From positions 1 to 52,714 of the forward strand of contig JAZKBO010000003.1 in NCBI GenBank assembly GCA_040388575.1: a stretch of 52,714 bases of DNA, read 5' to 3'. The translations under genes were made by a program, and so were the position numbers. Position 1 is the stretch's first letter, and each line of letters begins with the position of its first letter. Positions 17,657 to 24,907 of this stretch are shown piece after piece. This stretch comes from Patescibacteria group bacterium. GTDB lineage: Bacteria > Patescibacteriota > Minisyncoccia > Phycocordibacterales > UBA9973. The notes below the pieces were generated by a model. It did no database searches and was not told where the DNA came from. It was given only the letters and a program-made list of their open reading frames with translations.

Positions 17657-17701
17657 GAACCGGTAAGGAGCAGGAAATGCCCTACCGGTTTCCTGCTTTT
17701 T
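17657..17701 (+). terminator. Terminator-like hairpin with an alternative fold (between dksA-like gene and convergent recA)
   Basis: AGCAGGAAA/TTTCCTGCT plus T-run, or alternatively AACCGGT/ACCGGTT. Confidence 0.55.
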
Positions 17702-18752
17702 AGGCCTCTTCCGCGAATTTTTTCTTGATTTCTTTTAGGATATCGCTGCCGATCTTTTTATTTTCTTTCAGGAATGTTCTAGTAGCATCATAGCCGACTC
17801 CAAGTTTAACTTTTTCGGCCTTCTCGCCAGCTGGTAGGTAAAAGTAGGAATTGCCTGTTTTTTCAATAATTTTAAATTTTTCACCCAAGGCCATGATTTC
17901 ACCTTCTTTAGAAATGCCTTCGTTGTAAATAATATCAAATTCCGTTTGCTTGAAAGGCGCCGCAACTTTATTCTTTACTATTTTTACTCGAGTGCGAGAG
18001 CCAACAACTTCCTCACCTTTCTTTATCTGCGCGATTTTGCGAATGTCTAAACGTACTGAAGTGTAAAATTTCAAAGCCTTACCCCCTGGAGTAGTTTCTG
18101 GATTGCCGAACATCACGCCTATCTGCATGCGGATTTGGTTGATGAATATCACCACCGTCTTAGAACGTGCAACAATTGCTGTGAGCTTGCGGAGCGCTTG
18201 GGACATAAGCCTGGCTTGTTTACCCACATGATATGCGCCCATGTCACCTTCGATTTCATCTTTAGGGGTTAGAGCCGCTACAGAGTCCACCACAATCACA
18301 TCGATTTTACCGGTGCGCACGAGGCTTTCTACTATTTCCAGGGCTTGCTCGCCGTTATCAGGTTGTGAAATTAAAAGATTATTTATATTTACTCCGAGCT
18401 TCTTGGTATATTCCGGGTCCATCGCATGCTCCGCATCAATATATGCGCAAACGCCGCCGAGCCTCTGGGCCTCACCGACGATGTGCAGTGACAGGGTAGT
18501 CTTACCAGAGGACTCTGGTCCGAAGATTTCAATAATTCTCCCGCGCGGTATGCCGCCCACGCCGAGCGCCATATCCAGGCCGATGGAGCCAGTAGGTATG
18601 ACATTGATGTCCACCTTCGGCGAATCGCCGAACTTCATAATGGAGCCCTCACCGAATTTGGTCTGGATGGACTTTAGTGTGTCTTCTAGCATGGTGTCGC
18701 CACCGCCTACTGTTTTGTCTGCCTTCTCTTCCTTTTTAGTTTTCTTTAACAT
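17700..18752 (-). CDS. recA: Recombinase RecA
   Basis: [43 protein letters not shown]. Confidence 0.99.
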
Positions 18753-18755
18753 GGT

Positions 18756-19100
18756 TTAATAAATTAACTGATAATCTTCCTCATCGATATGACCAAATTT
18801 ATCTTCTGCTCTAATACTAATTAAATTATACCCTGGAAGCAAGGCGATATTTTCACTAAAATCCCCACCTTGGCTTACCGATATATCCCTGCCATTTAGG
18901 CTTAATTTATTAGCGTTTTTTGCGTTTCCGGTAACTAAAAGGGGGTTGGTGGTAACCTTTTCCCCGTTTACGATATTAACATTTTTTATTTTAACCCCCA
19001 CTATCAAATCGTAGGACCGAAAGAGGGCATATCCTATCAAAATTACAAAGAAAAGAATTATCCCGGAGATCTTCAGAAGTTTCTTAACATCCTGCGTCAT
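18756..19100 (-). CDS. Small membrane-anchored Ig-like hypothetical protein
   Basis: N-terminal TM, G.F.E.I.L.PG.N.I.I.AED..G beta motif; overlaps the ftsK stop. Confidence 0.65.
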   Translation of the reverse strand: MTQDVKKLLKISGIILFFVILIGYALFRSYDLIVGVKIKNVNIVNGEKVTTNPLLVTGNAKNANKLSLNGRDISVSQGGDFSENIALLPGYNLISIRAEDKFGHIDEEDYQLIY

Positions 19101-21301
19101 ATTATATTATTGCCCGCTTCATCGTGTGAAATTTTCTCCAAGACATCTCGCGGTTTGGCGCCGTCGCCCGGCCCGATAACTCCACGCTCCTCAAGTTTAT
19201 CCATCAGTCGTGCTGCGCGAGCGTAGCCTAATTTCAATTTTCTTTGAAGGTACGAGGTGGAGGCCTTACCGGCTTCGATCACACAGGCTCGAGCTTCCTC
19301 ATACATTTCATCATCATCTTCACTGTCTTCATCCTCGAGTGTGCTTTCAAAAATACTTTTATCTGCGGAAATTGATCCTGAGGTCAGTGCAATTTCCTCC
19401 ATTACTTCATCCCTGTATGCATCTGCTAAATATTTCACCACCTTCTTCACTTCACCCTCGGAGATAAATGCGGACTGCAAGCGCTCGGGTTGAGCCTCCC
19501 CAGAGGAGTACAACATGTCTCCGGCTCCCAGCAACTTTTCTGCACCACCAGCATCTAATATTGTGCGGGAGTCTATTTGTGAAGATACTTTGAGTGCTAC
19601 ACGGGCAGGTATGTTGGCTTTGATCAAGCCGGTAATGACATTCACCTCCGGGCGCTGGGTAGAGACGATTAAATGTATACCCACTGCACGTGACATCTGG
19701 GCAAGGCGCACAATAGCGGCTTCCAGCTCCCTCGGGTATGAGCTCATGATATCCGCTAGCTCGTCGATGATAATGACAATGTAAGGCATGCGGTCAGCAT
19801 CCACTTCAGTTTCGATACCTTCAGCATTTTTCTCCATCTTTTTAGGATTTTTACCCCAGACATTATTATGGTAGGACTCTATATCGCGCACGGATTCCGT
19901 TTCCAATATGTCATAGCGGCGATCCATTTCCTTCGCAGCCCACTTAAGCGCTAGGATTGTCTTCTTAGCTTCAGTGATAACTGGGGTCAGGAGGTGGGGG
20001 ATGTTGTTATATAGTGTAAGTTCAACTCGCTTCGGGTCGATAAGAATAAATTTCAAATCGTCCGGGCCGTTCCTGTAAAGGAGGGAAGTAATAATAGAGT
20101 GTATAGCCACAGACTTTCCTGAACCAGTTGTTCCAGCTACCAGAGCATGCGGCATCTTGGCTAAATTACCAAAGACAGCCTTACCGGATATACCGCGGCC
20201 GAGTGCGATAGTAAGGGGTTTCGGGGAGTCTTGGAATTTTTCGTCACCGAGCAGTGTGGCGAGGCCCACGATAGATTTGGATTTATTTGGAATTTCAATA
20301 CCGACTAGTGACTTACCCGGAATCGGAGCTTCGATGCGGATAGGGTGGGCGGCCAGCGCCAGCGCCAAGTCATTCTGCAGCCCGACGATGCGCGAGAGCT
20401 TCACACCTTCAGCGGGCTTGAGTGCATAGCGAGTCACTGTCGGCCCGATAGTAATTTCATCCATCTCAACTTCAATGCCGAAGTTTGCCAAGGTGCGGCG
20501 GATAATATTTGAATTTGCTTTTACATCTCCAGTATTTGGTTTACCTTTGTCTTCCTCAAGGAGTGAGAGTGGGGGAGGGGTGTAAGTTGAAATTAATCCG
20601 CCACGGCGCTTTTTAATCGGGATTTCTTCCTCAACTGCTTCTGCCACCACGCCTTTTTTAATTCCAAGAGCCTTTTTTATTTTTTCACCAGCGCTCTCCT
20701 CGTCCTCTTCACTTATTTCTTCCTCTTCCTCAACCTCTTCTTCCTCATCTTCCACCTCCGTTTCTTCCTCTTCCTCCACTTCCTTTTTGCCGAATAGGGC
20801 TTTAATTCTTTTCCATAGCGGAACCAAGCTCAACTTGGCATCGAACATTATTAAAATAGAAATTATTAAAATTGCGCCCAGGAAAACCAAACTTGCATAT
20901 GTATCAAAAAGATACATAAAAGGAGTGGATAGAACCATTCCCAATAACCCACCAGAATGAGTACCGGATGCTACGTCGATCATACCTAAACTTGAAAGTA
21001 GAAACATTATACCGCTCACCGTGCGAGTCCAGCCGATGTTTGGTCCCTCTCTTTTTAAAAAGGAGATTCCGATAAGTATGAAGAGGATAGGGAGCAAGAT
21101 ATAACCCACGCCCAAAAGGTAGCCTATTTTATCGTAAACTAAAGTTCCCGCTACCCCCGCAATATGCAAACGCGACATTAAAAAAAATATCGCAAAAACA
21201 AAAAAGATTACTGCCCGTATGCCATGTTTTGTTTCAGTTTTTAGTTTGGGAGTGTTCTCTCGTTCGCGTTCAACTTTTTTCTTATTCCCGCTTTTTGCCA
21301 T
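19097..21301 (-). CDS. ftsK: DNA translocase FtsK/SpoIIIE
   Basis: N-terminal TMs, RIEAPIPGKS, GTTGSGKS Walker A, IDELAD, STQRP, gamma domain LQRKLKLGYARAARL. Confidence 0.98.
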   Translation of the reverse strand: MAKSGNKKKVERERENTPKLKTETKHGIRAVIFFVFAIFFLMSRLHIAGVAGTLVYDKIGYLLGVGYILLPILFILIGISFLKREGPNIGWTRTVSGIMFLLSSLGMIDVASGTHSGGLLGMVLSTPFMYLFDTYASLVFLGAILIISILIMFDAKLSLVPLWKRIKALFGKKEVEEEEETEVEDEEEEVEEEEEISEEDEESAGEKIKKALGIKKGVVAEAVEEEIPIKKRRGGLISTYTPPPLSLLEEDKGKPNTGDVKANSNIIRRTLANFGIEVEMDEITIGPTVTRYALKPAEGVKLSRIVGLQNDLALALAAHPIRIEAPIPGKSLVGIEIPNKSKSIVGLATLLGDEKFQDSPKPLTIALGRGISGKAVFGNLAKMPHALVAGTTGSGKSVAIHSIITSLLYRNGPDDLKFILIDPKRVELTLYNNIPHLLTPVITEAKKTILALKWAAKEMDRRYDILETESVRDIESYHNNVWGKNPKKMEKNAEGIETEVDADRMPYIVIIIDELADIMSSYPRELEAAIVRLAQMSRAVGIHLIVSTQRPEVNVITGLIKANIPARVALKVSSQIDSRTILDAGGAEKLLGAGDMLYSSGEAQPERLQSAFISEGEVKKVVKYLADAYRDEVMEEIALTSGSISADKSIFESTLEDEDSEDDDEMYEEARACVIEAGKASTSYLQRKLKLGYARAARLMDKLEERGVIGPGDGAKPRDVLEKISHDEAGNNII

Positions 21302-21402
21302 AGGGGTATTTTAACACATTTTTTAGCAGATATTCAGCAAGAATAATTTTTTTTATTTGGTTTGTTTTAAGCGGAAACGATTTGTTGTTTTAGACGGACT
21401 TG

Positions 21403-21455
21403 GGAGCGCGGCGGCGCGAGCACGAGGAATTTTTCAGCAGAAAAATATCCGTACC
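21403..21455 (+). repeat. Dispersed GC-rich intergenic element, copy 1
   Basis: GGAGCGCGGCGGCGCGAG...ATTTTTCAGCAGAAAAATA; near-identical blocks at 28350-28408. Confidence 0.7.
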
Positions 21456-21499
21456 GTATAAAGCAATAAATTGTTGAAGCTGGGCCTTGCCTTTTATCC

Positions 21500-22314
21500 T
21501 GTCCTATATATAATGGACAAATGCCAGGAGATGAAAACAAGTTAAAGGACTCCACACAAGGCGCCTCCAATCCTTATCAGACAACTGTAAGTAATATGTC
21601 CTTTTCCTTGTCCTATACTAAAACAAACAAGCTAATTACAGCTCTTTATATGGTCACGGACATCCTAGACCAAAGTGAGCCACTTCGAAATAAATTAAGG
21701 ACATTAGGCACGGAAATCATATCGGACATATACTCCATCTCACTCTTCTCGGACGTTAATAGGTCTATAAAGGTCAGCAATAAAATTACTGAAACTATTT
21801 CCTTCCTTGATCTAGCTGGAGCAGTAAATATTATATCTGGCATGAACTGTAATATTCTAAAAAAGGAGTTTTTTGAACTTAAAAAATCAGTAGAAGAGAC
21901 AATACAAAAAACTGATTCCTTCGAGGTCCAAACAAACCTCGCGGATTACTTCAAAGAGGAATTACCTCCACCATCCCAATACAAACCCTCTAATCAAATT
22001 ACTACGTCCTATAAAAATAACTCTATCAGACATCTTCAGCCCGCAAGGATCGGGGTTCAAAAGGGGAGCACTCTAATGAAGGCTTTGTCCGATATGAGCG
22101 CCACTCGCCAGGGAGGAGCTATTTTAAATGACCTTAAGAAAGAAAGACGAGAAGAGATAATCTCTATAATAAAAAGTTTTTCAAATGATCGCTCCGAACC
22201 CATCGGCGCAACCATAACGGACATCAAAGGTAAAGCTAAAGGACAGCTTGCTACCCACAGTGAAAAAACGTTACAACGAGAGTTGATAGCAATGGTAACG
22301 GACAATGTCCTTTA
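21500..22314. repeat. Array of TAWNRGACA 9-mers in both orientations across promoter and CDS
   Basis: 11 exact copies counted by eye (starts 21500-, 21511+, 21575+, 21609-, 21720+, 22024+, 22086-, 22215+, 22237+, 22296+, 22306-) plus several one-mismatch copies. Confidence 0.85.
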
Positions 22315-22360
22315 CAAGACTGGATCTAAGCGTTGGTCACGCTATTTTGTAACAAAGTAG
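21521..22360 (+). CDS. Hypothetical protein: N-terminal helical bundle + C-terminal winged-helix DNA-binding domain
   Basis: R...II.II......TITDI....SEKTLQRELIAMV...VL.K.G..RWSRY resembles DeoR-like wHTH; promoter TTGCCT-16-TATAAT with ATG 6 nt downstream. Confidence 0.75.
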   Translation: MPGDENKLKDSTQGASNPYQTTVSNMSFSLSYTKTNKLITALYMVTDILDQSEPLRNKLRTLGTEIISDIYSISLFSDVNRSIKVSNKITETISFLDLAGAVNIISGMNCNILKKEFFELKKSVEETIQKTDSFEVQTNLADYFKEELPPPSQYKPSNQITTSYKNNSIRHLQPARIGVQKGSTLMKALSDMSATRQGGAILNDLKKERREEIISIIKSFSNDRSEPIGATITDIKGKAKGQLATHSEKTLQRELIAMVTDNVLYKTGSKRWSRYFVTK

Positions 22361-22550
22361 CCTATTTGGGGTAGTAGGGGTGACTTACGCAATATTTGAG
22401 CCCGAGTTACGTCATTAGCTAAGGACCCTATATTTCATTATGATTTGCATTTTGCTCCTAAATATGCGAATATAGGGTTGTGGATTGATTCTATTATATG
22501 AGTCGACTTTAGCCTTATAAAATAAGCGCTTAAGTTATCCACATAATATA

Positions 22551-22861
22551 TTGCCCTATTTCGGTGGTATATTATAATGGTTCTGTGATTATGTGATGCG
22601 CATGTTTTATGTGCGTTATGTGTCGCAGAATTGAATTTGTTTTTTACTTATGATTTCGTCGAAAAAATCATTCGTTAAAAAGCAAAGGAAAGGTCATTGA
22701 AAACTGAATAGCTATGTTTTCAATGTATGTTTATATCTGTTCATTATTATTTCCGCTGCATTATAATTCATTATTAATTATTAGCGGAGAGGTAATGATA
22801 GGAAAAATACGCTTTTAGTTTTGTCGAAACTAATTAATGGCGTAGCAATTAAAAAAAATTT
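22551..22861 (+). promoter_or_regulatory. Promoter and long structured 5' leader of S-layer-like gene
   Basis: TTGCCC-16-TATAAT (22551-22578); hairpins at 22581-22630, 22695-22725 and about 22741-22800. Confidence 0.55.
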
Positions 22862-24907
22862 ATGAGTAATGTATTAAAATCAAAATTCTTTCTTGGAGTC
22901 ATGATTGTTGCAGCTTTTGCTGTTGTTCTCGCAATGTCTGCGAGCTTCGCTCTTGCTTACACACATTCAGTAACTCTTAAGATGGGTTCAACTGGTTCAC
23001 AAGTTATGAGTCTTCAACAGGCTCTTAACGGAGCTGGCTTTCTAGTTTCTGCAACTGGCGCAGGTTCTCCAGGAATGGAATCAACTTTCTTCGGTGCAAA
23101 AACAAAGGCAGCTGTAATATCCTTCCAAGCAGCTCATGGTCTTACTGCTGATGGCGTTGTCGGTCCTATGACTGGCGCAGCTCTCGGTGGTTCAGTGTCT
23201 GGTAACTTCCCAGCTGGATGTACTTCAGCTTCAGGTTTCAGCACAACCACAGGTATGCCATGTAATAGTGGTCCATCTACTGGTCTTCCAGCAGGATGTT
23301 CTTCTACTATGGGATACAGTATGACTACTGGTCACAAGTGTGATGGTAGTGACACTGGTTCTTCAACAGGCGGAACACTTTCTGGCGGCGAAACTACAAT
23401 CGATAATTTGAAAGTAGAGTCTGCGGACGATACTTCTATTACTGAAGGTGATTCAAAGGCAGAAGTTGCTCAAATCAAATTCACTGTTAAGGATGCTGAT
23501 GCTCAGCTAACTCGCCTTGACCTTGCCTTTACTGCCGGTGGTGGTAATGATGAGACTCGCCCATGGAATACTTTTGACAAGGTCTACTTGATGGATGGCA
23601 GTAAAGTCCTCGCATCAATTGATTCTTCTTCAAAGACTGACTGGGATGAGGTAGGTTCATCTGGTGATTATCGCATTCGTATGTCTGGTATCAATGCTAA
23701 CTTCAATGAAGGCACGCACGCTATTCTTTCAGTAGCTGCTGACGTTGCGGATAATGTTGACTCTGGAAACGATGGTGAGGACTGGAATGTAAAGCTTGAT
23801 GACCAATCATCTTCTACTGGTGCTCGTTTTCTTGACGGCGCTGGGGTAGATACAGTTGATAACGGTTCAGGAAGTGCTGATTTCACAATCGACGCTTCAG
23901 GCGTAAACACTGACGTTACAATAACTAAGGACACTTCAAGTCCTGCAGCTGGTACTTTGCAAGTTGACAATACATCTTCAACTACTGAAACTGTCGCAGT
24001 CTTTAAAGTAAAGGCTGACGCTGACGGTGGTGATGTGAAGATAGATGACTTCCCAATAAGTATTACTGTTGCCAACGGCACCACAGATGGGAGTAAAGTT
24101 ATCAGTGATGTTATGCTCATCGTAGATGGCACAACTTACACAACTGACAACATTGCAGACTCAACTGGTAGTAATGCTACAGATGGCTACTTCCACTTCG
24201 GTGATATCGAAGATGATAATGTAGTTATCAACGCTGGTGATACTATGAAGGTAACTGTTAAAATTAAATTCAAGTCACAAGATGGTGGTACTAACTACTC
24301 CAACGCTGAAACCGTTGTTGTTCAGTCACAGGCCGCTTCAGGTGATTTCGAGGACGCAAGCACTGGGGATGATATCGGCACTGTAAGCGGTACTCCAACT
24401 GCTGAGACCCAACAGCTCTTTGCTGAAGGCTTACAAGTCTCCAACTTCAAAGTTGTAGGCGGTAACCCATCAAAGACTGAGGATACTAACGGTTTGGCTA
24501 CAAAGTTGACTTGGGTAGTAAGCTTCGATGTAACAGCATTTGGTGATACATTTTATATCCCAAAGACTGTTGTTCTAGGTACTACTTCAACTACAGCAGG
24601 TTTGACATACACAATGTATGATGAAACTGCTGGAGCAACAACCACATCCGGAGTAGAAACAGCATCAAGCTTGAGTTCAACTGCTGATGACACTGATCAC
24701 ACCGGTTACTACACTGTGAACGAGGGTGATACTGAAACCTTTACTGCTACAATATCAGAAGGGGCAACAGGTATTACCGCTGGTCACTTTATTAAAGCTC
24801 AACTACAGAAGCTTGGTTATAACACTGATGGCGTAAGTAACGTTACACAGGTTGACCTGCTTCCAGCTAGTGACTACGACACTTTGTCAGGTTCTCTTGG
24901 TAACTAG
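22862..24907 (+). CDS. Secreted peptidoglycan-binding-domain surface (S-layer-like) protein
   Basis: Signal peptide, LKMGS.G..V..LQ..L...FG..T..AV..FQ..HGL..DG.VG..T PG_binding_1 motif, two Cys repeats, S/T/D/G-rich beta body, strongly biased codons. Confidence 0.8.
   Translation: MSNVLKSKFFLGVMIVAAFAVVLAMSASFALAYTHSVTLKMGSTGSQVMSLQQALNGAGFLVSATGAGSPGMESTFFGAKTKAAVISFQAAHGLTADGVVGPMTGAALGGSVSGNFPAGCTSASGFSTTTGMPCNSGPSTGLPAGCSSTMGYSMTTGHKCDGSDTGSSTGGTLSGGETTIDNLKVESADDTSITEGDSKAEVAQIKFTVKDADAQLTRLDLAFTAGGGNDETRPWNTFDKVYLMDGSKVLASIDSSSKTDWDEVGSSGDYRIRMSGINANFNEGTHAILSVAADVADNVDSGNDGEDWNVKLDDQSSSTGARFLDGAGVDTVDNGSGSADFTIDASGVNTDVTITKDTSSPAAGTLQVDNTSSTTETVAVFKVKADADGGDVKIDDFPISITVANGTTDGSKVISDVMLIVDGTTYTTDNIADSTGSNATDGYFHFGDIEDDNVVINAGDTMKVTVKIKFKSQDGGTNYSNAETVVVQSQAASGDFEDASTGDDIGTVSGTPTAETQQLFAEGLQVSNFKVVGGNPSKTEDTNGLATKLTWVVSFDVTAFGDTFYIPKTVVLGTTSTTAGLTYTMYDETAGATTTSGVETASSLSSTADDTDHTGYYTVNEGDTETFTATISEGATGITAGHFIKAQLQKLGYNTDGVSNVTQVDLLPASDYDTLSGSLGN

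What the first reader, a model, noticed from the sequence alone, without database searches (positions are those of the whole stretch)
21487..22360. Winged-helix gene beside ftsK is paved with about 17 copies of one 9-mer: a possible self-bound iteron/centromere-like system
Seen: TAWNRGACA occurs exactly 11 times in about 815 bp (21500-, 21511+, 21575+, 21609-, 21720+, 22024+, 22086-, 22215+, 22237+, 22296+, 22306-). One-mismatch copies lie at 21543, 21597, 21654, 21695, 21768 and 22005. The copies fall on both strands and in different reading frames, so the protein sequence does not explain them. A rough composition-based expectation for this span is well under one copy. One inverted pair straddles the -10 box (TATAAT 21509-21514), and another sits in the wHTH-coding region (22296-22314). 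The product has a C-terminal wHTH. Inference: the protein binds its own locus at many sites, giving autorepression plus a large nucleoprotein array, as with plasmid iterons, parS/parC or MatP/matS-type sites. Its divergent position from ftsK-recA hints at chromosome organisation, segregation or replication control in CPR bacteria.
Basis: partly seen in the sequence, partly recalled or inferred. Interest (0 to 1): 0.86.

Follow-up and report, generated by a model that had tools for sequence, protein, structure and literature searches.

The report
Regulator gene paved with one motif
A DNA-binding protein gene found only in one group of ultra-small (CPR) bacteria carries about a dozen copies of one 9-letter DNA word across its promoter and coding sequence, kept there by selection on silent codon positions, most likely as landing sites for its own product.

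Summary
TAWNRGACA occurs 66 times in the 713,652-bp genome, and 11 copies lie in 815 bp here. The motif refines to TAWHGGACA: 24 in the genome, 9 in this locus. Synonymous-codon permutations never reach the observed GGACA count in 12 of 14 related genes (p 0.0015 in the other two). Both orientations are enriched, and rare codons (ACG, TCG, AGG) are used exactly where they build a site. The paving is family-wide but graded. It is dense in 34 of 41 loci where the gene sits divergent to ftsK. It is thinner but still about 3 times expectation in 41 loci elsewhere. Two inverted copies bracket the -10 box of a leaderless promoter.

The protein joins an N-terminal Avd/23S-rRNA-IVS-type four-helix bundle, a disordered linker and a C-terminal winged helix. 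Solved relatives of the bundle are pentamers.

Best reading: a multivalent autorepressor that grips an irregular site array on its own gene. No binding was shown. Origin or terminus roles are not supported: there is no skew switch, and dnaA lies on another contig. A ParABS-type centromere lacks its adjacent NTPase, and a canonical ParB lies elsewhere, but a landmark role is not excluded. I rate it a new variant of a known kind.

The parts
21487..21492 (+). -35-like hexamer TTGCCT of the gene's promoter
   Evidence: Sequence. A TTGMNT hexamer 16-17 nt upstream of the -10 in most of the 14 related loci. Promoter function is inferred.
21500..21508 (-). Upstream operator half-site TATAGGACA (TGTCC on +), between -35 and -10
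   Evidence: TGTCC lies at this place in 11 of 14 related loci.
21509..21514 (+). -10 box TATAAT, 6 nt before the ATG (leaderless-type promoter)
   Evidence: All 14 loci have a -10-like hexamer 6-9 nt before the start codon. The genome holds 135 TANAAT-N4-8-ATG starts with a peak at N6 (76), and only this one has GGACA in the spacer.
21511..21519 (+). Downstream operator half-site TAATGGACA, between the -10 and the start codon
   Evidence: GGACA lies here in 9 of 14 loci; 4 more have a one-letter variant.
21521..22360 (+). CDS of the 279-aa four-helix-bundle + winged-helix protein. It is single copy in the genome and matches no Pfam, NCBIfam, PADLOC or PHROG family.
   Evidence: More than 1200 homologues, all labelled 'hypothetical' or 'HxlR'. 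2382 cluster representatives at E<=1e-3.
21602..21940 (+). Codes residues 28-140: four-helix bundle of the Avd / 23S rRNA IVS protein type
   Evidence: AF2 pLDDT above 90. VIA-align: 2gsc Z 15.2, Avd 4dwl Z 14.8, 8ub7_B Z 14.4, 2rld Z 14.2. Foldseek TMt 0.72-0.85. hhalign of the 82-sequence family profile against 20 PF05635 proteins: probability 96.1%, E 3.6e-9.
22112..22357 (+). Codes residues 198-279: winged helix-turn-helix. Recognition helix 248-260, wing 264-277.
   Evidence: secondary structure. Z 9.1-9.7 to Z-alpha, IclR-type, TtgV and SelB winged helices. Invariant K249, Q252, R253, R271, W272, Y275.
21575..21583 (+). Site TATCAGACA (AGACA variant)
21597..21605 (-).
21609..21617 (-). 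Site TATAGGACA, over codons L-S-Y
21654..21662 (+). Site TCACGGACA over V-T-D-I. The Thr codon is ACG.
   Evidence: ACG at this column in 10 of 14 genes, against an 8.2% background share.
21695..21703 (+). Site TTAAGGACA over R-T (AGG ACA)
   Evidence: AGG in 9 of 14 genes, against 7.6% background.
21720..21728 (+). Site TATCGGACA over I-S-D-I (TCG GAC)
   Evidence: TCG in 9 of 14 genes, against 6.2% background.
22024..22032 (+). Site TATCAGACA (AGACA variant)
22086..22094 (-). Site TATCGGACA
22215..22223 (+). Site TAACGGACA over I-T-D-I
22237..22245 (+). Site TAAAGGACA
22296..22314 (.). Head-to-head pair TAACGGACA / TAAAGGACA (GGACAATGTCC) inside the wHTH-coding part
17700..21301 (-). Divergent neighbours: ftsK (19097-21301), a 114-aa gene (18756-19100) and recA (17700-18752). 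ftsK has its own leaderless-type promoter (TAAAAT-ACCCCT-ATG).
   Evidence: Pfam. Same order in 13 of 13 close loci. ftsK is divergent-upstream in 41 of 82 family loci. The promoter is read from the sequence.

Best explanation
The gene encodes a DNA-binding protein confined to Paceibacteria. It has three parts: an N-terminal four-helix bundle of the Avd / 23S-rRNA-IVS family, a roughly 60-residue disordered linker, and a C-terminal winged helix. Solved members of the bundle family are pentamers, so it is the likely oligomerisation hub.

I propose that the 9-bp word TAWHGGACA is this protein's own recognition site. Two inverted copies bracket the -10 box of its leaderless promoter, so a bound protein would shut off its own transcription. 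About ten further copies lie through the coding sequence in either orientation and at irregular 10-30-bp spacings. Selection at synonymous positions keeps them there.

This arrangement gives a multivalent oligomer with flexibly tethered DNA-binding heads one high-avidity landing pad, and it is the only such cluster in the genome. The expected result is steep, cooperative negative feedback and a nucleoprotein body covering the gene, 160-220 bp from the ftsK-recA promoter.

Shown: the motif, its selection, its confinement to the gene, the promoter geometry, and the predicted folds. Inferred: that the product is the binder, that it oligomerises, and that binding represses.
For: (1) Local excess. 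11 of 66 genomic TAWNRGACA and 9 of 24 TAWHGGACA lie in 815 bp. This locus has 12 GGACA per 900 bp; the next window has 7.

(2) Selection on DNA rather than protein. The observed GGACA count exceeds all 2000 synonymous permutations in 12 of 14 genes, with p=0.0015 in the other two. Rare codons are used where they build a site: ACG in 10 of 14, TCG in 9 of 14 and AGG in 9 of 14 genes, against 8.2%, 6.2% and 7.6% background. Flanks are biased regardless of frame: T at -4 in 83%, A at -3 in 72%, W at -2 in 97% of 358 sites.

(3) Double-stranded target. Both orientations are enriched: 94 against 33.3 and 48 against 11.1. One promoter half-site lies upstream of the transcript.

(4) Turnover with a maintained count. 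142 sites occupy 58 aligned positions, 33 of them private to one gene, yet each gene holds 8-14.

(5) The motif travels with the gene. Excess over permutation is 302 against 79.6 in 41 ftsK-adjacent loci and 97 against 32.9 in 41 loci in other contexts. Flanks stay at 0.20-0.47 per kb.

(6) Operator geometry. TGTCC lies between -35 and -10 in 11 of 14 loci, GGACA between -10 and ATG in 9 of 14, and both in 7 of 14. Of 135 leaderless-type starts in the genome, only this one has GGACA in the spacer.

(7) No sign of a wider regulon that would point to another global factor. Intergenic GGACA density is 1.09 per kb against 1.18 coding.

(8) A protein fit for the job. The winged helix has its invariant residues on the recognition helix and the wing. 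The bundle is related to Avd/PF05635. Avd is described as pentameric (10.1101/344556, passages read). For Xcc0516 I saw only a reference title, 'five four-helix bundles', in the reference list of PMC10053308.
Against: No binding, oligomer state or repression was measured; every functional step is inference. Ordinary autorepression needs one or two operators, so simple feedback does not by itself explain why about ten further sites are kept inside the CDS.

Some family members carry few or no sites. Nine of the 41 non-adjacent loci have 0-1 copies of the 9-mer in gene plus upstream. A complete array-poor genome has no cluster anywhere. Yet the recognition helix and wing look the same in site-rich and site-poor members. 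The array is therefore not essential to the family, and no protein-DNA covariation supports self-recognition.

The bundle is not detected by the Pfam PF05635 model. The narrower profile gave only 14.6% hhalign probability. Pentamer formation is carried over from relatives, not shown.
Confidence: 0.55

Rival explanations
1. Chromosomal landmark or centromere-like body. The array's main purpose is structural. The protein coats its own gene to form a unique nucleoprotein mark beside ftsK-recA that is used in chromosome organisation, segregation or division. Autoregulation is a by-product.
For: This is the single dominant cluster in the genome. Dense arrays occur in 34 of 41 loci where the gene is divergent to ftsK, against 1 of 41 elsewhere. 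About ten sites beyond the promoter pair exceed what feedback needs. Centromere-binding wHTH proteins exist: TubR appears as a weak Foldseek row at rank 41, E 0.21.
Against: No partner NTPase is adjacent. A canonical ParB is encoded elsewhere. ftsK adjacency changes only once on the protein tree, so the association gives one independent contrast. Site-poor relatives and a complete genome without any cluster show the family works without such a body. The locus is not at a skew switch.
Confidence: 0.15
2. The sites belong to another DNA-binding factor that silences or times this gene. The gene's own product does not recognise them.
For: No binding data exist. The wHTH surface is equally conserved in site-poor relatives. 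No covariation between protein and motif could be found, because the family is confined to one class: 13 of 401 phylum-level genomes matched.
Against: The motif excess follows the gene into different genomic contexts. It stops at the gene's borders, where flanks hold 0.2-0.5 per kb. A separate factor with such a motif should have other targets, yet intergenic density equals coding density and no second comparable cluster exists. A repressor site pair on the promoter of a wHTH gene is the classic mark of autoregulation (general knowledge).
Confidence: 0.12
3. Reservoir of auxiliary operators for the divergent ftsK-recA operon. The array raises the local concentration of the regulator so that it controls the neighbouring division and repair genes.
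For: The order recA-small gene-ftsK | gene is conserved in 13 of 13 close loci and 41 of 82 family loci, with 105-378 bp between the two starts. Dense arrays occur almost only in that arrangement. A few loci have an extra GGACA 65-125 bp upstream.
Against: No site lies at the ftsK promoter in the window; the nearest is about 160 bp away. Extra upstream sites are not general. The association is phylogenetically a single event.
Confidence: 0.1
4. Iterons of a replication origin lying inside the gene of its initiator, as in lambda O/ori or iteron plasmids.
For: Many copies of a short word lie inside the gene of a DNA-binding protein. A DnaA-box-like TTATCCACA and AT-rich DNA lie 175 bp downstream.
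Against: GC skew stays positive on both sides, and the genes on both sides are on the + strand. dnaA is on another contig. The sites are irregular in spacing and orientation. The gene is a single-copy, vertically conserved chromosomal gene with stable synteny and no phage or plasmid signal. The DnaA box sits just upstream of the -35 of a promoter for a conserved leader RNA.
Confidence: 0.03
5. An RNA-level signal or a compositional/codon artefact.
For: The GGA-containing words could recall RNA-protein sites. The gene uses unusual codons.
Against: The antisense orientation is even more enriched: 4.3-fold against 2.8-fold. One half-site is upstream of the transcript. Within-gene permutations keep codon content and still fall far short.
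Confidence: 0.02

Closest known systems
Avd (DGR accessory variability determinant) and PF05635 '23S rRNA intervening sequence' four-helix-bundle proteins (PDB 4dwl, 8ub7, 2gsc, 2rld)
   Same: The N-terminal 110 residues have the same fold: Z 14.2-15.2, rmsd 1.8-3.0 over 103-113 residues. They align profile-to-profile with PF05635 proteins of the same bacterial class: 96.1%, E 3.6e-9. Free-standing PF05635 genes are common in this class, in 122 of 201 genomes.
   Different: The domain is not recognised by the Pfam model. It is fused to a linker and a winged helix. No reverse transcriptase (PF00078) was found in this genome and no DGR parts lie nearby, so it does not work as a DGR accessory. 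Pentamer formation is not shown for it.
Autorepressors with extra operators inside coding sequence
   Same: A repressor site at the promoter, plus sites downstream of the start that strengthen repression by cooperative binding.
   Different: Those systems have one intragenic operator with fixed geometry. Here 8-14 short sites lie at irregular spacing and orientation through the regulator's own CDS. They are maintained by synonymous selection and by turnover across many genera.
Centromere-like arrays bound by small DNA-binding proteins (ParR-parC, TubR-tubC, SopB-sopC, ParB-parS inside spo0J; recalled)
   Same: Many copies of a short site are bound by the product of the adjacent or the same gene, giving a large nucleoprotein complex. 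TubR is also a winged-helix protein.
   Different: No motor gene is adjacent. The sites are not tandem or regular. The setting is chromosomal, single copy and not near an origin. A canonical ParB is present elsewhere.
Iteron origins inside initiator genes (lambda O / ori-lambda; recalled)
   Same: Repeated binding sites lie within the coding sequence of the protein thought to bind them.
   Different: There is no sign of an origin. The sites are 9 bp and scattered over 0.8 kb in both orientations, rather than a compact block of direct repeats.
MatP/matS
   Same: A sequence-specific chromosome-associated protein with multiple sites, functionally linked to the division site.
   Different: matS sites are spread over a macrodomain. 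Here the sites pile up in one gene. The predicted fold has no ribbon-helix-helix.

Membership tests
Avd / PF05635 (23S_rRNA_IVP) four-helix-bundle family (N-terminal domain) | Up-down four-helix bundle of about 110 residues superposable on solved members | tested here: met
   VIA-align: 2gsc Z 15.2, 4dwl Z 14.8, 8ub7_B Z 14.4, 2rld Z 14.2; the next unrelated bundle scores 12.4. Foldseek TMt 0.72-0.85.
Avd / PF05635 (23S_rRNA_IVP) four-helix-bundle family (N-terminal domain) | Sequence-profile relationship to the family | tested here: inconclusive
   The Pfam HMM gives no hit for this protein or for 113 relatives. hhalign with the narrow profile A1: 14.6%. hhalign with the 82-sequence family-wide profile: 96.1%, E 3.6e-9 over 102 columns. 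I read this as remote homology that fails the curated threshold.
Avd / PF05635 (23S_rRNA_IVP) four-helix-bundle family (N-terminal domain) | Homopentameric barrel | not testable with these tools
   Pentamers are reported for Avd (10.1101/344556, passages). For Xcc0516 I saw only a title in the reference list of PMC10053308. Nothing here measures the oligomer state of this protein.
Winged helix-turn-helix DNA-binding domains (C-terminal domain) | H1-H2-H3 plus beta-hairpin wing fold | tested here: met
   AF2 pLDDT 91-97 over residues 200-279, with helices 197-220, 232-238 and 248-260 and strands 264-267 and 274-277. Z 9.1-9.7 to Z-alpha, BlcR, TtgV and SelB winged helices.
Named wHTH regulator families (DeoR, HxlR, IclR) | Match to the family's Pfam model | tested here: not met
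   0 of 113 family members match any of these at E<=0.01. Only automatic labels exist: 'HxlR' from one source, and HTH_DeoR on 12-87% of members of neighbouring Atlas clusters.
Iteron-type replication origin | Position at a replication origin (skew switch, gene-orientation switch, initiator/DnaA context) | tested here: not met
   Cumulative GC skew rises throughout the 52.7-kb contig. Genes are on + on both sides. dnaA is on contig C1.
Iteron-type replication origin | Directly repeated, regularly spaced iterons | tested here: not met
   Both orientations occur. Neighbour distances are spread mainly over 10-30 bp with no dominant value.
ParABS / ParMRC / TubZRC-type partition locus | Adjacent partition NTPase gene, with the centromere next to the operon | tested here: not met
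   The neighbours are ftsK and a PG_binding_1 surface protein. The only ParB_N match lies on contig C2. ParA, ParM and TubZ families were not searched genome-wide.
MatP/matS-type macrodomain organiser | Sites dispersed over a large chromosomal domain | tested here: not met
   9 of 24 TAWHGGACA lie in 815 bp. The other 15 are scattered over 6 contigs without a domain pattern.
Classical autorepressor | Operator overlapping the regulator's own core promoter | tested here: met
   Half-sites at -24..-20 and -6..-2 relative to the inferred start. At least one half-site is conserved in 13 of 14 loci, and both in 7 of 14. Occupancy and repression are not testable here.

The most novel reading that the evidence does not exclude
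A pentameric hub carries five flexibly tethered winged helices. It condenses on the roughly 0.85-kb DNA of its own leaderless gene, possibly in cis as it is made. This builds a unique, heritable nucleoprotein body beside the ftsK-recA operon. Paceibacteria would use that body as a chromosomal landmark that couples division or DNA-repair gene expression, or FtsK action, to the state of this locus. The gene would serve at once as coding sequence, operator array and structural element. This is not a member of any described partition, iteron or nucleoid-protein system.
Probability: 0.15. Interest if true: 0.88.

Novelty: new variant of a known kind. Interest (0 to 1): 0.72.

Why it matters
Regulators of the CPR/Patescibacteria are almost wholly uncharacterised, because the organisms are hard to grow. 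This case offers a protein family of more than 1000 members with no Pfam model. Its probable DNA target can be read directly from comparative genomics, and it can be tested in vitro without culturing the organism.

It is also an unusually clean example of strong selection on synonymous sites for a DNA-level function. Rare codons are fixed wherever they complete a 9-bp word, and new copies arise as old ones decay.

If the bundle really is an Avd-like pentamer, it would give a worked example of how a multivalent binder reads a loose 'cloud' of short sites instead of a fixed operator. It would also give a first cellular role for a fused member of the enigmatic PF05635 family. The link to ftsK-recA, if functional, would bear on how these tiny cells control division and repair.

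Tried and rejected
Oligomer prediction. Complex prediction on residues 28-140 with 4 copies gave 'no answer' (score 0.23, mark 0.42). It is neither support nor evidence against.

Sequence search of the PDB with the family profile found only spurious armadillo-repeat rows at E>=0.002.

Rfam found nothing in 21000-23200 at E<=1.

Motif-shift and covariation test. A group of five site-poor relatives showed CGGATA/TATCGG enrichment. Inspection showed the same two positions in close kin plus 1-3 ordinary TATCGGACA sites, so there is no independent evidence of a changed motif. A phylum-wide search for more distant family members to test covariation found the family essentially confined to one class. 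Of 401 genomes, 13 matched; two high-scoring 'other-family' genomes may be mis-binned contigs.

Second targets. The next GGACA cluster lies in a CCA-adding-enzyme gene on contig C1: 7 per 900 bp, all on one strand and over K-D-I-type peptides. I treated it as the tail of the distribution. Two intergenic TAWHGGACA copies (C1:620, C2:76909) have no clear gene link.

RNA evidence. Two metatranscriptome runs (X3, X10) carried no contig over the gene itself. These are assembled contigs, so this says nothing about expression.

ftsK association. The count is striking (34 of 41 against 1 of 41), but there is only one independent contrast on the tree, so no statistical claim is made.

Literature. Five searches were run. 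Four used these terms: Patescibacteria/winged helix/four-helix bundle; accessory variability determinant/pentamer/four-helix bundle/intervening sequence protein; Candidate Phyla Radiation/leaderless/promoter; Parcubacteria/transcriptional regulator/binding motif/autoregulation. The listings showed no paper on this family or motif. I read only passages of PMC10053308 and 10.1101/344556. Supplements were not consulted.

Rows dropped or selected:
- L065 was left out because of N in the CDS.
- Of 60 further genomes with hits, I fetched 40. The 20 left out were the weakest hits or had in-frame stops.
- My start codons for L003, L005 and L012 (9 nt) and L010 (57 nt) were too far upstream. A few promoter sites were therefore counted as CDS sites.
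Full report
WHAT IS THERE. The window is contig C3 of a 713,652-bp, 9-contig genome. Its relatives are labelled Paceibacterota/Nomurabacteria. The stretch 21487-22360 holds a promoter and a 279-codon ORF, 21521-22360 on the + strand.

Shuffles of the window give 6.73 +/- 2.44, and none of 100 reaches 15. In the whole genome there are 66 copies. The background outside this spot is 0.077 per kb, or about 0.06 expected in 815 bp. The next densest 875-bp window has 4. An unbiased k-mer scan makes GGACA the most enriched 5-mer, at 12 against 1.11.

I took 358 sites from 35 related genes. The flanks are strongly biased whatever the frame or strand: T at -4 in 83%, A at -3 in 72%, A/T at -2 in 97%, and not-G at -1 in 97%. 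The word is therefore TAWHGGACA. The genome has 24 copies and 9 are here.

IT IS A DNA-LEVEL SIGNAL UNDER SELECTION. The sites fall in all three frames and on both strands. I compared 14 genes: the window plus 13 loci at 41-53% protein identity.

- The number of GGACA/TGTCC in the CDS is 8-14. It exceeded all 2000 within-gene synonymous permutations in 12 genes and had p=0.0015 in two. Permutation means were 1.6-6.9. Resampling from the neighbours' codon usage gave the same picture.
- Both orientations are enriched: sense 94 against 33.3 expected, antisense 48 against 11.1. This argues for double-stranded DNA, not RNA.
- Rare codons are fixed where they complete a site. Thr at the V-T-D column is ACG in 10 of 14 genes (background share 8.2%). 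Ser at I-S-D is TCG in 9 of 14 (6.2%). Arg at R-T is AGG in 9 of 14 (7.6%).
- The 142 sites occupy 58 aligned positions. Six positions are shared by at least 7 genes (51 sites), and 33 are private to one gene. Some sites are old and others keep arising while the count per gene stays put.
- Where T-D-I lacks the site, a neighbouring M-D codon pair often carries one.

PROMOTER. In all 14 loci a -10-like hexamer lies 6-9 nt before the start codon, so the mRNA should be leaderless. TGTCC lies between -35 and -10 in 11 of 14 loci. GGACA lies between -10 and ATG in 9 of 14, and four more have a one-letter variant. Both are present in 7 of 14.

In the window the layout is TTGCCT (21487-92), 16 nt, TATAAT (21509-14), GGACAA, ATG. 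The half-sites are at about -24..-20 and -6..-2. The genome has 135 TANAAT-N4-8-ATG gene starts with a sharp peak at N6 (76). Only this one has GGACA in the spacer, so GGACA is not a generic start element.

THE PROTEIN. No Pfam, PADLOC or PHROG family matches, and NCBIfam gave only a weak sub-threshold row. None of 113 relatives matches a Pfam family meaningfully. The family is large: more than 1200 proteins at E<=1e-3 in one search, and 2382 cluster representatives in the other. It is single copy here.

It is essentially confined to one class. It was found in 90 of 301 class genomes with a single-sequence query, and in 13 of 401 genomes in a phylum-wide sample.

AlphaFold2 with 113 sequences gives pLDDT 80.7. 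The model has a four-helix bundle (residues about 28-140, pLDDT above 90), a disordered stretch (about 145-180), and a winged helix (about 198-279, pLDDT 91-97). The invariant residues K249, Q252, R253, R271, W272 and Y275 sit on the third helix and the wing.

The bundle's four best structural matches are all from one family: Xcc0516 (2gsc, Z 15.2), Avd (4dwl, Z 14.8; 8ub7_B, Z 14.4) and BT_0352 (2rld, Z 14.2). Foldseek agrees. PF05635 proteins are common as free-standing genes in this class (122 of 201 genomes), though none was found in this genome at E<=1e-5.

A narrow family profile aligned to 20 of them with only 14.6% probability. A profile of 82 diverse family members gave 96.1%, E 3.6e-9 over 102 columns. 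I read the domain as a divergent relative of PF05635/Avd. Avd is described as a pentameric barrel (10.1101/344556, passages). For Xcc0516 I saw only a reference title, 'five four-helix bundles', in the reference list of PMC10053308. No reverse transcriptase was found in this genome, so a DGR role is unlikely.

CONTEXT. Upstream and divergent lie ftsK, a 114-aa gene and recA. Downstream lie a peptidoglycan-binding surface protein and a Wzy_C protein. This order holds in 13 of 13 close loci.

GC skew does not switch in the contig, and genes are on the + strand on both sides. dnaA and a ParB gene lie on other contigs. Intergenic GGACA density equals coding density, at 1.09 against 1.18 per kb. 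The only other modest cluster is 7 per 900 bp in a CCA-adding-enzyme gene. The gene itself is therefore the one outstanding target in the genome.

ACROSS THE FAMILY. I analysed 82 loci. They comprise 14 close loci, 29 auto-fetched, and 39 of the 40 I chose from 60 remaining hits; L065 was dropped for N in its CDS.

- ftsK is divergent-upstream in 41 loci.
- An array of at least 7 GGACA (CDS plus 60 nt upstream) is present in 34 of those 41, and in 1 of the other 41.
- On the protein tree, ftsK adjacency changes only once. This is one independent contrast and not a statistic.
- With the 9-mer WAWNRGACA, the paving proves family-wide but graded. ftsK-adjacent loci have 8.69 per kb in the gene plus 200 nt upstream, against 0.20 per kb in flanks. 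The others have 3.12 against 0.47.
- Against synonymous permutation the totals are 302 against 79.6 (37 of 41 genes at p<=0.02) and 97 against 32.9 (12 of 41).
- Some distant loci carry the copies mainly upstream, for example L038, L019 and L023.
- The most divergent members have none.
- A complete 836,981-bp genome of a site-poor lineage has no outlier cluster anywhere. Its maximum is 8 per 900 bp, within a smooth tail.
- The recognition helix and wing look the same in site-rich and site-poor members.

HOW IT MOST LIKELY WORKS. Five features fit one reading:
- a winged-helix gene whose core promoter is bracketed by an inverted pair of the motif;
- a motif excess that starts at the promoter and stops at the stop codon;
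- an excess that follows the gene into other genomic contexts;
- irregular spacing (mostly 10-30 bp) and either orientation;
- a long flexible linker between a probable oligomerisation hub and the DNA-binding head.

Together these fit a multivalent autorepressor. Each head reads a short word weakly. Only a cloud of words gives high avidity, and the cell keeps exactly one such cloud, on the regulator's own gene. Occupancy of the promoter pair would block RNA polymerase. The internal sites would add cooperativity, and possibly roadblocks, and would hold a store of the protein at the locus.

The motif, its selection, its placement and the predicted folds are shown. Binding by the product, oligomerisation and repression are inferred. 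I put this at 0.55.

The main rivals are these:
- The body on the gene is the point, as a landmark beside ftsK-recA.
- Another factor binds the sites (0.12).
- The array serves control of the divergent ftsK operon (0.10).
- An origin or iteron role (0.03).
- An RNA-level signal or artefact (0.02).

COMPARISON WITH KNOWN SYSTEMS. The system works like an autorepressor with auxiliary operators. It resembles centromere and iteron arrays in having many sites for the product of the same locus. It fails their membership tests: no origin context, no regular direct repeats, no adjacent motor, no domain-wide spread (see the membership table).

I found neither the fusion of an Avd-type bundle with a winged helix nor an array of about ten sites held inside a regulator's own CDS by synonymous selection in the four answered literature searches I ran (listings only).

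LIMITS. There are no experiments. The complex-prediction job gave no verdict (see Tried and rejected). The RNA data are assembled contigs. Gene starts in four loci were mis-set by 9-57 nt.

Noticed in passing
window 22575-22861 (and L001, L002, L004, L006-L010, L013 downstream of the gene): The intergenic stretch before the PG_binding surface-protein gene (435-671 bp across the 13 loci examined; 501 bp in the window) is strongly conserved and looks like a structured leader or small RNA. RNAalifold predicts 45 pairs, 10 with compensatory changes (for example columns 91-94/116-119). Blocks such as ATTTCGTCGAAAAAAT, GGTCATTGAAAA and TACGCTTTTAGTTTTGTCGAAACTAATTAATGGCGTA are invariant. Rfam has no match. 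A 209-nt contig of a soil metatranscriptome run (X3) is identical to 22622-22830.
   Followed up: partly
window 22535-22543, with the promoter-like TTGCCC...TATTATAAT at about 22551-22579: A perfect DnaA-box word TTATCCACA sits just upstream of the -35 of the promoter for that leader RNA. It is present in all 13 related intergenic regions examined. The genome holds 23 such words. This may mean DnaA-dependent control of the downstream surface-protein gene.
   Followed up: partly
window 22444-22478: A second conserved promoter-like block, TTGCATTTT-N10-AAATATGCGAATAT, lies downstream of the gene's stop codon in most related loci. Its function is unknown.
   Followed up: no
whole genome (G000): Leaderless-type gene starts seem common. 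There are 135 TANAAT-N4-8-ATG starts opening ORFs of at least 100 codons, with a sharp peak at a 6-nt spacer (76). ftsK is one of them (TAAAAT-ACCCCT-ATG at 21301-21316, minus strand).
   Followed up: partly
window 21405-21460: A GC-rich stretch between ftsK and the gene shows about 10-fold higher depth than its surroundings in two DNA metagenome runs (X2, X4), with contigs running off unlike on both sides. It is single copy in this genome. It may be a short element shared by many organisms or contexts. Other loci have different hairpin-like elements at the same place.
   Followed up: partly
G000 contig C1:1145-1450 (outside the window): Five same-strand GGACA copies lie within 300 bp of a CCA-adding enzyme/HD-domain gene, over K-D-I/K-G-H peptides. 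Two more copies lie upstream near a tRNA gene. This is the second-densest cluster in the genome. It is probably chance, but it was not tested in relatives.
   Followed up: partly
class-level genome sample: Free-standing PF05635 (23S rRNA IVS / Avd-like) genes are abundant in this class: 122 of 201 genomes, with up to 9 matches per genome. None was found in the window's own genome at E<=1e-5.
   Followed up: no
L160 (G370:C96) and L161 (G660:C65): Two genomes filed in other families of the phylum carry near-full-score copies of this family (E about 1e-100). One is a 2.1-Mb, 150-contig bin. These may be mis-binned Paceibacteria contigs rather than a wider distribution.
   Followed up: no
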